64,000 nt of DNA from Escherichia coli (GCF_050920415.1 NZ_CP169309.1), one strand, 5' to 3'. Counted from the stretch's first letter, positions 15,701 to 18,700 are shown. Program-made: the numbers.

Positions 15701-18700
15701 AAGGTGCGGTTGAGTTAATCATCTGCAACGCGCGATCTTCCAGTGCTGCCGGAACTAAAAGGAATTTAGGCGCAATATTCAGCACTTCGCCATTTTTGTC
15801 CTTCTGTGTGCGCATCAGGTGACGTGCTGCACTAAGTCCCGGTGTTGTCAGTCCTGCTTCAATCAGGTTGCTGTGTTTTTTGTCAAACAGCGCTATTCCA
15901 TCAGAAAGTTTTACGTTGCCTGTAAGCACCAGATTAACCAGATTTCCCACCGTTCTTGATGCTGCACGGCCCATAGCCATTGGCACCGTTGATAACTGAT
16001 CAAGGTCATCATTGATTATCGCCTGGCGGGTAATGCTGAAAATATTCCCGTAAGTAGCCAGCGCGATGGGTTCACCGCGATCGCTGGTGGTGATGTATTT
16101 ATATTCTGCCCCTTCCGGCACTTTGTTTAACGTAGAGAAACCATTCAGACCAACGCGGCGGGCTTCACGAAAGTTTGAAAGGGAACCTTTTTTCGTCCAC
16201 TGGCGGAATGTTTCGCCGCTGTGCTCCCAGCCTGCAAGCACTGATTTTTCAGCACCACCAGCAAGGATATCGGTAAAATCGCTGCTGCTGTGGTTGAATG
16301 CCGCGTTTACTATCTGCGAGCGTGTTCCGTAGCTGCCCGTGCTTATACCACGATGGGTTAATGATGCCTGTGCCATATCGAAAAGGCTCATCATGGCGTA
16401 AGGATTACCGCGTTCGGCCCGTTCGTGACCAAGACGCGCATTAAGCCCCTGGCGCATTGCATCGCCGGTTATGTTGCCGTTATCCGTGTACGCGTAGTAA
16501 AGATTTGCGGGGGTGGTTTTATTTGTTGGCGTTGATTCTTTACCCATAGCGAGTAAAAGGCGTTCGCGTGCATTCTCAACGCTACATTCTGAATCAGCAA
16601 GACAACTTATAGCCAGGTCGTTATATCTTCCGTTGAACGTGCCAAACAATTCACGGATGCCGTTAAGTCGTTCCTGTTCGCCACTGCCAGTTTTCTGGCT
16701 GATCATGCTTTTAATTTTTTCCGGCATATTTGAAAAATCTCCGATTCGTTTTGATTCAATTCGGGCCATTGCTGTAATCGCGGGTATAACCTCATCTGCG
16801 AAGCCGTTAGCCTTACACTCATTGCCATCCATCCAGGTTTCCGCCTCCATCATGGCGGTGATTTCCTGTTTGCTCCTGCCCGTTCTTCCGGCGTAGGTTT
16901 CAGCCATCGTGTCGCCCAGCTTGTCCATCAGGTCAGCAAAGCGGCGAACGTCGCCCGACACTCCGGCAGTAACACCACGGGGGGCATGTATCATCATCAT
17001 TGCGTTTTCAGGCATAACGATGTGATCGCCACACATGGCAATAAACGAGGCCATAGAAGCCGCCATGCCTTCAATGTGTACAATTTTCTTTGCCGGATGA
17101 TTTTTCAGGGCGTTATAGATAGCCAGCCCTTCAAAGATGTCGCCACCAGGTGAATGGATGCGAAGATGGATTTCAGACGCATTACCACACGCGTTGATCT
17201 CGTCAGTAAGTGCCGATGCTTTTACACCGTACCCGCCGATCTCGTCATAAATGCGCACATAGACAACATCTGCCATAGCCTTAATGGAAAACCATGTTTT
17301 CATAGCCAGGCTCCTAACGTTGCCCTGTACCAGTATTCAACCGCGCTGCGTGTGATTTGTCCTTTCGTGGGTACCGGCATACCCGGGTGATTGTCTTTGA
17401 TGAACTGCTGATAGCGTTCGATCTTCTCCATAGTTCCGGCGTCTATGTGTACCGTGGCACTTTTATCCGGCTTTCTGGTGTTGTTCTCTGGCATAAATCC
17501 GCCTCCGTTTTGATTAACGGGCATCATTATTGATCGATAAAAGTAATAGATAAATCATTTTCTACCTGAAAATTAGATTATATTTTTTCTGATTATTCTC
17601 AGAGAGGCAAAGCCATTGACGCATTTTTGCTATTGAAGCAATATTAAGACTCGTCATCCTGGCGATAAAAACTCCTTTGTCGTGTAAAAGCGCCTCCGGT
17701 AACAGCAATCGAGGGCGCTTTTTTTTGCGCCTGTTTTTTTGTAAATGTTTTCGGGAACGCTCCAGTGATGAACAAAAAACAACCTGATTCGACACTAAAA
17801 ATTTTTATTCCTCAATATATCAATAACTTATAGTGGTGGTGATGGTGCCATAAAAATCAAAAAATGCGCCTTTTTCCGCGCCCGCCCGCCCCGTGGACAG
17901 GCCCACCAAGCCAGGAGTACCTACAAAAAAGCCGGATTGCTCCGGCTGTGTGCTCACTTCTTCGGTTATTCTCCAGCGCTTTTAACGTTGATGGTTGTAA
18001 CCTGTTCCGCTTCGGCAATCTCCCATTCTGTCAGCGTGGCAAAGTTTGCCGCCGCTGTGGTCATGAATGCGCTTATCAGGTCGGGATGTGCTTTCGCGTA
18101 TCCTTCCCCCGTGTTGCGGTCGATGATTTTTATCGCCACTCTCAGCCAGTGCTCTGTAAGGTCAATGGCGCGGTTATGCTGCTTCTTCTGATTATTAAGT
18201 TTTCCTGATGTGCGCATTTTTATTTTTACCCCCTCGTTTAAAAAGTTTTGAGTTGTGCCTCCCCTTGTCTACCTTATCTACCTTACTGGCCACCATGCCA
18301 GTAATGGCGCGGCTTTCAGTGGGGTAGAGTGCTTTTATCCACTATCTACCCCGTATCTACCTCCCTGTCTGATTCAGGTAAAATCAGGTAGAGAGGGTAG
18401 ATAGTAGGTAGACAGTAAAAAAAGGCTGTCTACCCAAGTTAATGTACTGAATTAAATGTATTTTTCTTTACTCAGGTAGACAGGGTAGACAGCCATTGCA
18501 ACAAATTATAAAAACGCGTCGCAATCGTCTGTTGTTATTGCGTTAGTCTGCGTTACTCCTTTAACTTTCCGCGTAATATATTCATGTCCGTAAACTTTCG
18601 CGGCTGGCTTCATAGCCTTGCCAAAGTCATTTACGTTTAGCGGTTTGCTCCTGCCTGCGTACGCCATAAACGCCAGATAGACGCGGTAAAGGCTGTTTCT

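What the first reader, a model, noticed from the sequence alone, without database searches (positions are those of the whole stretch)
18264..18494. Dense bidirectional iteron array immediately downstream of the primase gene
At least ten copies of a 9-bp unit GGTAGA(C/T/G)(A/T)G or its complement occur in both orientations within about 230 bp, several in tandem (e.g. CAGGTAGAGAGGGTAGATAGTAGGTAGACAG). The position, directly 3' of the replication protein gene, is where P4 and PICI-type elements place their iteron origins.
Basis: partly seen in the sequence, partly recalled or inferred. Interest (0 to 1): 0.6.

Follow-up and report, generated by a model that had tools for sequence, protein, structure and literature searches.

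The report
Replication origin of an E. coli PICI
The repeat cluster is real and is the replication origin of a phage-satellite island; an identical sequence in E. coli CFT073 was already shown by experiment to work as an origin, so it is a known feature.

Summary
Eleven exact GGTAGA cores (six on +, five on -) lie in window 18268-18489. The first is 13 bp from the stop codon of the 582-aa replication gene (18506-20254, minus strand).

Window 18210-18510 is 301/301 identical to the DNA 3' of pri-rep in the phage-inducible chromosomal island EcCICFT073. Fillol-Salom et al. 2018 (PMC6092414) showed that a pri-ori plasmid needs both the gene and this segment. Their delta-ori primers bracket window 18216-18501.

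- GGTAGA cores are conserved across arrays that are only 75% identical overall.
- The iteron sequence changes with the Rep allele at the same position (GGTAGA, GGTGAACAG, TGCGGGTTAT, GCCCACTTT).
- The Rep C-terminus is homologous to the solved P4 origin-binding domain.
- A 40-bp AT-rich spacer sits between inverted iterons.
- cos-like packaging sites lie elsewhere in the island.

The "primase" has no detectable primase catalytic domain. In P4, the iterons directly after alpha are crr, not ori.

Novelty: already known. Interest is low.

The parts
18218..18505 (.). Complete rep-to-next-gene intergenic region, which is the origin (ori) segment. It corresponds to the DNA removed in the published EcCICFT073 pri-delta-ori construct.
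   Evidence: 301/301 identity of window 18210-18510 to EcCICFT073. Published primers map at 18195-18215 and 18502-18522.
18475..18492 (+). Rep-proximal tandem iteron pair (GGTAGACAG x2), ending 13 bp from the rep stop codon.
   Evidence: GGTAGA cores invariant in 7 diverged arrays.
18435..18474 (.). AT-rich spacer (about 25% GC) between inverted iterons. It is the candidate DNA-unwinding element.
   Evidence: GC 0.25. The 30-mer 18440-18469 is less stable than 99.6% of 30-mers in the island. [quoted passage not shown] 2a.
18426..18434 (-). Single inverted iterons on the inner side of the AT-rich spacer (GGTAGACAG).
18387..18415 (+). Central tandem triple of iterons (GGTAGAGAG, GGTAGATAG, GGTAGACAG; spacing 9 and 11 bp).
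18342..18361 (-). Central tandem pair in the opposite orientation (GGTAGATAG, GGTAGATAC). It mirrors the triple about a dyad near 18378.
   Evidence: Inverted repeat I1, 47-nt arms.
18323..18331 (+). Single iteron (GGTAGAGTG), the mirror partner of 18426-18434.
18296..18321 (.). Conserved non-iteron, GC-rich block (TGCCAGTAATGGCGCGGCTTTCAGTG) in the rep-distal spacer. Role unknown.
   Evidence: Mostly invariant columns in alignment A1 although the arrays are only 75% identical.
18265..18282 (-). Rep-distal tandem iteron pair (GGTAGACAA, GGTAGATAA), inverted relative to the proximal pair.
   Evidence: Inverted repeat I2, 89% complementary.
18506..20254 (-). Cognate initiator/helicase ('Pri-Rep', 582 aa). 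It consists of an N-terminal 125-aa module, D5_N, an SF3 P-loop ATPase, and a C-terminal P4-alpha-type origin-binding domain (residues 486-574).
   Evidence: Pfam, NCBIfam, PHROGs, PDB matches 7OLA and 1KA8. 91% identical overall to EcCICFT073 Pri-Rep, with only 4 differences after residue 150.

Best explanation
The array is the vegetative replication origin of a roughly 10.6-kb phage-inducible chromosomal island (PICI) integrated next to tRNA-Pro between yejM and yejO.

Proposed mechanism: after the island is induced, the Rep protein encoded just upstream binds the 9-bp GGTAGA(Y/G)AG iterons through its C-terminal winged-helix domain. That domain is of the P4-alpha origin-binding type. The iterons are arranged as inverted sets on both sides of a 40-bp AT-rich spacer (18435-18474). 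This lets two Rep assemblies load in opposite orientations, melt the spacer, and start unwinding as SF3 helicase hexamers. The host replisome then copies the excised circle.

Shown directly: the repeats, their conservation, their co-variation with the Rep allele, the Rep domain content, and sequence identity with an origin validated by experiment elsewhere.

Inferred by analogy with SaPI Rep and P4 alpha: binding by the C-terminal domain, melting at the AT-rich spacer, and double-hexamer loading.
For: 1. Identity to a tested origin. Window 18210-18510 is 301/301 identical to EcCICFT073, and Rep is 91% identical overall with only 4 differences after residue 150.

2. Published experiment (PMC6092414). 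A pri-ori clone rescued a temperature-sensitive plasmid, the delta-rep clone did not, and the delta-ori clone gave significantly fewer colonies. The cloning primers map to window 18195-18215 and 18502-18522, so the deleted 'ori' spans all the iterons. A 60-nt deletion-primer arm equals window 18458-18517.

3. Selection on the cores. In 7 arrays with 75% mean identity, 51 of 66 core positions are invariant against 54 of 170 non-core positions (Fisher p = 3e-10). Each array keeps 9-11 cores.

4. Co-variation with the initiator at the same position:
- D5_N/SF3 allele of the window: GGTAGA.
- P4-alpha-like allele (L005, L014): GGTGAACAG, which contains the P4 type I iteron.
- DUF927 allele (L004): TGCGGGTTAT.
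- RepA-helicase allele (L006): GCCCACTTT.
.

5. C-terminal domain tracks the iteron. The L005 C-terminal domain is 50% identical to P4 alpha, against 35% for the window Rep.

6. Finer co-variation. Iteron base 8 is A in 49 of 53 units in one group and G in 29 of 33 in the other. The only fixed Rep differences between the groups in residues 151-582 are at 542, 543 and 545. These lie inside the stretch homologous to the solved P4 origin-binding domain 1KA8.

7. The AT-rich spacer is among the least stable 0.4% of 30-mers in the island.

8. Homology breakpoints in other genomes fall at the distal edge of the array, so Rep and the array travel together (H9, H14-H24).
Against: Nothing was tested on this island itself, and it may be partly decayed: it carries an Icd-like pseudogene and an unusual morphogenesis module.

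In the published experiment the ori deletion 'significantly reduced' colony numbers; the text does not say it abolished them.

No Rep-iteron binding or footprint has been reported for this allele in the papers read here.

The co-variation of base 8 with residues 542/543/545 rests on only two lineage groups.

The conserved GC-rich block at 18296-18321 is not explained by the iteron model.
Confidence: 0.93

Rival explanations
1. The repeats are, or also serve as, operator or copy-control sites. Rep or another island regulator would bind them to throttle read-through into the downstream morphogenesis genes, or to pair origins (handcuffing). In this reading they do more than start replication.
For: The array lies inside a one-directional operon between rep and the next ORF, and the scan found no terminator or promoter in it. 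Iterons in plasmids commonly double as control sites (established knowledge). A conserved non-iteron block sits in the array.
Against: The identical segment is needed for rep-dependent plasmid maintenance. The arrangement of iterons around an AT-rich spacer is that of an origin. Any control role would add to origin function, not replace it.
Confidence: 0.04
2. The repeats are part of the island's packaging signal (cos or pac) recognised by a helper-phage or island terminase.
For: Terminase small subunits often bind repeated sites (established knowledge).
Against: The array has no cosN-like sequence. The only near match to lambda cosN in the window is inside the rep coding region, at a level reached in 26 of 100 shuffles. 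Two 98-nt repeats with a lambda-cosN-like GC-rich core lie at 15311-15408 and 17850-17947. They match unannotated DNA of Stx lambdoid phages and DNA about 100-190 bp from one end of the mEp460 record. In EcCICFT073 the two cos sites were deleted with primers of their own and are described separately from the ori. The repeat sequence tracks the Rep allele, not the capsid or terminase module.
Confidence: 0.01
3. The array is an intact-looking but inactive relic, because this copy of the island can no longer be induced or replicate.
For: The island carries an Icd-like pseudogene and lacks the capsid/decoration/terS genes seen in EcCICFT073 or the Nissle island.
Against: Rep is full length (582 aa), and int and the AlpA-like HTH gene are intact. 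The ori is identical to a working one. att repeats are present at both ends.
Confidence: 0.02

Closest known systems
EcCICFT073 ori (E. coli CFT073 PICI; Fillol-Salom et al. 2018, ISME J, PMC6092414)
   Same: The 301 bp compared are identical. The Rep allele is the same, with only 4 differences after residue 150. The position is the same, immediately 3' of pri-rep, and so is the arrangement of iteron sets flanking an AT-rich region. Function was shown there with pri-ori, pri-delta-ori and delta-pri-ori plasmids.
   Different: The island backbone differs. The integration site is tRNA-Pro/yejM here and ycfD-phoQ in CFT073. The Rep N-terminal 125 aa is a different mosaic variant (72-74% identical in the L002, L003 and L008 Reps, which like CFT073's are 584 aa and 91% identical overall). 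The downstream module here is a ClpP-protease/capsid fusion, not SSB, PerC, capsid and decoration genes. The cos-like repeats have a different core.
SaPI origins (SaPIbov1, SaPI1, SaPI5) with self-loading Rep helicases
   Same: The ori lies immediately downstream of rep. There are 6-12 short iterons in both orientations around a central AT-rich region. Rep is an SF3 helicase with a C-terminal winged-helix domain that binds the iterons (PMC9371898). The window Rep matches SaPI5 PriRep (7OLA) over residues 186-430.
   Different: The iteron sequence and length differ (9 bp with a 6-bp core here, 5-6 bp in SaPIs). The host is Gram-negative. The AT-rich spacer is off-centre, next to the rep-proximal pair. 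The similarity to SaPI Rep is distant (E = 1.5e-14).
Satellite phage P4: alpha protein with ori and crr
   Same: The window Rep aligns at 40.5% identity with the part of the P4 alpha gene that follows its first ~325 codons (record 4702-5994; query residues 141-571), which holds the helicase and origin-binding parts. Its C-terminus matches the solved P4 origin-binding domain 1KA8. P4 crr is a cluster of bidirectional 8-bp iterons directly 3' of alpha. A sister Rep allele in the same island family uses the P4 iteron itself (L005, L014).
   Different: The P4 iteron is TGTTCACC, not GGTAGA. P4 needs two separate sites, ori and crr, about 4.5 kb apart, while this island has a single cluster. The part of P4 alpha ahead of the aligned region (about 325 residues), which holds its primase (established knowledge), has no counterpart here; a 125-aa module stands in its place. 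crr is built from two 120-bp direct repeats, whereas this array has dyad symmetry.
Iteron-containing theta plasmid origins (e.g. pSC101, R6K, F oriS)
   Same: The general logic is shared: multiple short initiator-binding repeats next to an AT-rich unwinding element, with the initiator gene linked in cis (established knowledge).
   Different: Plasmid iterons are usually 17-22 bp, directly repeated, and bound by a Rep protein with no helicase activity that recruits host DnaA/DnaB. Here the initiator is itself an SF3 helicase, the repeats are 9 bp and run in both orientations. The one DnaA-box-like site (18335-18343) is not conserved.

Membership tests
Gram-negative PICI replication origin (EcCICFT073 type) | Located immediately 3' of the replication initiator gene | tested here: met
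   The first iteron ends 13 bp from the rep stop codon, and the array fills the rep-to-next-ORF gap.
Gram-negative PICI replication origin (EcCICFT073 type) | [quoted passage not shown] | tested here: met
   There are 11 cores in both orientations. The spacer 18435-18474 has 25% GC and lies between inverted iterons. The feature is defined in PMC6092414 Fig. 2a.
Gram-negative PICI replication origin (EcCICFT073 type) | Sequence identity with the origin validated by experiment | tested here: met
   301/301 identical to NC_004431.1 at the pri-rep 3' region. The published delta-ori primers bracket the array.
Gram-negative PICI replication origin (EcCICFT073 type) | Supports rep-dependent autonomous replication | not testable with these tools
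   Shown for the identical sequence in EcCICFT073 (PMC6092414), but not tested for this island.
Gram-negative PICI (element level) | Island of about 10-15 kb with int, an alpA-like HTH gene, pri-rep and ori transcribed in one direction, flanked by att repeats at a PICI-specific site | tested here: met
   int 22830-24089, an HTH gene, DUF4222, rep, ori and a capsid-related gene are all on the minus strand. att repeats are at 13555-13590 and 24135-24170. They resemble the yejM-site att core listed for EcCIED1a.1 and EcCIATCC25922.
Gram-negative PICI (element level) | Induction and high-frequency transfer by a helper phage | not testable with these tools
   Only indirect evidence: cos-like repeats that match Stx lambdoid phages.
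P4-like satellite replicon | Alpha protein with an N-terminal primase domain | tested here: not met
   The alignment with P4 alpha covers only query residues 141-571, which correspond to the alpha gene after its first ~325 codons. Pfam finds D5_N, DUF5906 and Pox_D5 only. The N-terminal 125-aa module lacks the Toprim Glu and DxD residues.
P4-like satellite replicon | Type I iteron TGTTCACC | tested here: not met
   The iteron core here is GGTAGA. The P4 iterons are listed.
P4-like satellite replicon | Two-part cis requirement (ori plus crr about 4.5 kb apart) | tested here: not met
   Outside the array the island has only one isolated GGTAGA (17561), so there is no second cluster.
SaPI-type ori with self-loading SF3 Rep | SF3 helicase initiator with a C-terminal winged-helix domain that recognises iterons placed 3' of its gene | tested here: inconclusive
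   Domain homology is present: 7OLA for the ATPase part and 1KA8 for the C-terminal domain. Binding itself was not tested. Iteron-to-C-terminal-domain co-variation supports it.

The most novel reading that the evidence does not exclude
The origin may have more parts than the published 'iterons plus AT-rich region' picture. The rep-distal spacer holds a conserved 26-bp GC-rich block (18296-18321) that is not an iteron. The so-called Pri module of Rep looks like a Toprim fold that has lost its catalytic Glu and DxD residues. Together these would mean that the island does not prime its own DNA, and that the conserved block is a loading or recruitment site for a host factor such as DnaG or a primosome component. 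Separately, Rep residues 542, 543 and 545 would set which base is read at iteron position 8.
Probability: 0.15. Interest if true: 0.4.

Novelty: already known. Interest (0 to 1): 0.1.

Why it matters
It matters little as a discovery. This sequence was described and tested as the EcCICFT073 origin in 2018, and matches to the array occur in 563 of 5426 complete E. coli genomes (412 of them over at least 80% of its length).

It is useful for annotation. It marks a PICI replicon that genome annotation leaves blank ('none' under every hit), and it shows that the rep-ori pair moves as one exchangeable cassette among islands with different integrases and capsid modules.

The side observations are small, testable leads on how these origins are recognised and primed: iteron-Rep co-variation down to a three-residue patch, a possibly inactive Toprim module, and a conserved non-iteron block.

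Tried and rejected
- Known RNA family: the Rfam scan of 17500-19000 at E <= 1 gave only sub-threshold noise, hairpin-like miRNA models hitting the inverted iterons. Rejected.
- Functional hairpin: the strong single-strand DNA folding score (z = -6.5) follows simply from the inverted iterons, so it is not evidence of a hairpin with a function.
- Promoter or terminator in the array: none found in the intergenic region.
- Lambda-type cosN in the array: absent.
- DnaA box: TTATCCACT at 18335-18343 matches 8 of 9 bases but is not conserved in homologous arrays. Treated as chance.
- Palindrome TTACTGGC...GCCAGTAA at 18283-18304: its left arm is not conserved, so it is not taken as a conserved hairpin.
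- Pasteurella phage Pmp8 (L015): no clear iterons 3' of its primase at seed 7. In that record the region runs into an integrase remnant, so the result is uninformative.
- Iteron sequences of published Fig. 2a: the figure is not held as text, so the link to the paper was made through primer sequences and the CFT073 genome instead.

Full report
**1. Observation**

The gap between the 582-aa ORF at 18506-20254 (minus strand) and the 83-aa ORF at 17966-18217 (minus strand) is 288 bp. It holds 11 exact copies of GGTAGA between 18268 and 18489, six on the plus strand and five on the minus strand. The whole 64-kb window holds 27 copies, against 13.8 +/- 3.6 expected, and no shuffle reached 27. The looser 9-mer GGTAGANNG occurs 8 times in the array and 3 times elsewhere. 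The remaining three units differ only at base 9. Tandem units are 9 or 11 bp apart. 'Ten copies' holds at 8 of 9 bases.

**2. Anatomy**

Read on the plus strand, the array is:
- a pair on the minus strand (18265-18282);
- a 40-bp GC-rich spacer;
- one unit on the plus strand (18323);
- a pair on the minus strand (18342-18361);
- a centre with two degenerate units;
- a triple on the plus strand (18387-18415);
- one unit on the minus strand (18426);
- a 40-bp AT-rich spacer (18435-18474, about 25% GC);
- a pair on the plus strand (18475-18492);
- the rep stop codon, 13 bp further on.

The two halves mirror each other about a dyad near 18378 (inverted repeats I1 and I2). The AT-rich spacer is the fourth least stable 30-mer in the 10.6-kb island, at the 99.6th percentile. 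The scans found no promoter-like or terminator-like site in the gap and no Rfam family.

**3. Context**

The window is E. coli chromosome, 100% identical to NZ_AP042500.1 over the stretch compared (window 17900-20300). The array lies in an island bounded by imperfect direct repeats at 13555-13590 and 24135-24170, next to tRNA-Pro (24290-24366) and yejM. All of the following genes are on the minus strand:
- integrase;
- an HTH (AlpA-like) gene;
- an Icd-like pseudogene;
- small ORFs;
- a DUF4222 gene;
- the 'DNA primase family protein';
- the array;
- two small ORFs;
- a ClpP-protease/major-capsid fusion;
- PerC.

This is the gene order of Gram-negative phage-inducible chromosomal islands (PICIs). 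The same yejM site and a similar att core are listed for EcCIED1a.1 and EcCIATCC25922 in PMC6092414.

**4. The replication protein**

Pfam finds D5_N (151-280), DUF5906, an SF3 P-loop (314-415), and Pox_D5 (485-573). NCBIfam gives only TIGR01613 'primase_Cterm', which explains the name. Two solved structures match. SaPI5 PriRep (7OLA) aligns over residues 186-430, and the P4 alpha origin-binding domain (1KA8) aligns over residues 486-574. tblastn aligns query residues 141-571 at 40.5% identity with the part of the P4 alpha gene that follows its first ~325 codons (record 4702-5994). The protein is therefore an SF3 helicase-initiator with a P4-type origin-binding domain. The part of P4 alpha ahead of the aligned region, which holds its primase, has no counterpart here.

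**5. Comparative evidence that the repeats are the Rep binding sites**

*(a) Conservation.* Seven arrays linked to the same Rep allele are 75% identical on average. Even so, 51 of 66 core positions are invariant, against 54 of 170 non-core positions inside the array (Fisher p = 3e-10). Each array keeps 9-11 cores. The Rep proteins of those loci are at least 94% identical over residues 151-582.

*(b) Co-variation with the initiator.* Related islands carry other initiators fused to the same N-terminal module, each followed by a gap of about 290-370 bp. The gaps hold different bidirectional repeats:
- TGCGGGTTAT after a DUF927 protein (L004);
- GGTGAACAG after a P4-alpha-like allele (L005);
- GCCCACTTT after a RepA-type helicase (L006).

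The 16.5-kb vB_KppS-Ant record (L014) likewise has GTGTTCACC repeats right after its primase gene. GGTGAACAG contains the P4 type I iteron TGTTCACC, which is annotated in P4 ori and crr. The C-terminal domain of the L005 Rep is 50% identical to P4 alpha, against 35% for the window Rep.

*(c) Finer co-variation.* Among GGTAGA arrays, base 8 is A in 49 of 53 units in one group and G in 29 of 33 units in the other. The only fixed Rep differences between the two groups in residues 151-582 are N542A, D543E and G545S. These lie inside the 1KA8-like domain. Only two lineage groups are involved, so this is a lead and not proof.

*(d) Linkage.* Homology with other genomes breaks at the distal edge of the array (H9 starts at window 18211). 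Some genomes share the 83-aa ORF but neither rep nor the array (H14-H24). Rep and the array therefore move as one cassette.

**6. Link to published experiments**

Fillol-Salom et al. [quoted passage not shown] They cloned the rep gene and putative ori of EcCICFT073 into a temperature-sensitive plasmid. At the restrictive temperature colonies appeared with rep-ori, did not appear with delta-rep, and were significantly fewer with delta-ori.

A 60-nt homology arm of their pri deletion primer equals window 18458-18517. I fetched the CFT073 island (NC_004431.1 1377000-1390000). Its pri-rep 3' region is identical to window 18210-18510 at 301 of 301 positions. Its Pri-Rep is 91% identical overall, with only 4 differences after residue 150.

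The primers that define their constructs map as follows:
- The pri-ori end primer maps to 18195-18215. The supplement text prints one C fewer than the window sequence.
- The pri-delta-ori end primer maps to 18502-18522.

The deleted 'ori' therefore corresponds to window 18216-18501, which holds every iteron. The finding is the published EcCICFT073-type origin, sitting in a different island backbone.

**7. Mechanism**

Shown: the repeats, their selection, their link to the Rep allele, the Rep domains, and identity to a functional ori.

Inferred from SaPI Rep (PMC9371898) and P4 alpha (1KA8; established knowledge):
- the C-terminal winged-helix domain reads the iterons;
- inverted iteron sets on either side of the AT-rich spacer position two Rep assemblies;
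- the spacer melts, and the SF3 hexamers load themselves and unwind.

Priming is unresolved (see section 9).

**8. Rivals**

*Packaging site.* Rejected. The array has no cosN-like sequence. Two 98-nt repeats at 15311-15408 and 17850-17947 carry a lambda-cosN-like core, CGGGGCGGGCGGGCGCGG. They match unannotated DNA of Stx-converting lambdoid phages at about 97%, and DNA about 100-190 bp from one end of the mEp460 record at about 80%. In EcCICFT073 the two cos sites are separate elements.

*Operator or copy-control role.* This could exist alongside origin function but cannot replace it.

*Relic in a decayed island.* Possible for this particular copy, but rep, int, the att repeats and the ori are all intact.

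**9. Seen in passing**

*A conserved non-iteron block.* A 26-bp stretch at 18296-18321 is conserved in all seven arrays but is not an iteron. I have no explanation for it.

**10. Verdict**

The feature is already known, since an identical sequence was characterised in 2018. Interest is low.

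Noticed in passing
window 15311-15408 and 17850-17947: Two 98-nt direct repeats (79% identical) share a GC-rich core, CGGGGCGGGCGGGCGCGG, that resembles lambda cosN and its flank. They match unannotated DNA in Stx-converting lambdoid phages at about 97%, and DNA about 100-190 bp from one end of the mEp460 record at about 80%. They are probably two cos sites of the island, like cos1 and cos2 of EcCICFT073 but of a different helper type.
   Followed up: partly
[not shown]
   Followed up: partly
window 18296-18321: A non-iteron block, TGCCAGTAATGGCGCGGCTTTCAGTG, in the rep-distal spacer is mostly invariant across arrays that are otherwise 75% identical. It is absent from the arrays of the other Rep alleles. 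Its function is unknown.
   Followed up: no
window 18628-18639 (Rep residues 542-545) and base 8 of each iteron in 18265-18492: Iteron base 8 is A in one group of arrays (49/53) and G in another (29/33). The only fixed Rep differences between these groups in residues 151-582 are N542A, D543E and G545S, inside the domain homologous to the P4 origin-binding structure 1KA8. This is a possible specificity determinant.
   Followed up: partly
window 13555-13590 and 24135-24170: Imperfect direct repeats (CGTATAACYAAACGTATAACTAAAA, 83%) bound a roughly 10.6-kb island beside tRNA-Pro (24290-24366) and yejM. They resemble the att core published for PICIs at the yejM site. A third, weaker copy lies at 13495-13530.
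   Followed up: partly
window 15414-17303 (minus strand): The island encodes a 629-aa ClpP-like prohead protease/major capsid fusion. EcCICFT073 and the Nissle island at the same att site instead carry a separate capsid gene, a decoration gene and (in Nissle) terS. The morphogenesis module is thus exchanged independently of the rep-ori cassette.
   Followed up: no
window 18335-18343: TTATCCACT matches the DnaA-box consensus TTATNCACA at 8 of 9 positions inside the array, but it is not conserved in homologous arrays (L003 has TTATCCGCT; it is absent in L009-L012). It is probably chance.
   Followed up: yes
window 10782-13376 and about 21002-21253: RefSeq annotates the flanking yejO autotransporter gene as frameshifted and the island's Icd-like gene as a partial pseudogene in the identical genome. 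This hints at some decay in and around the island.
   Followed up: no
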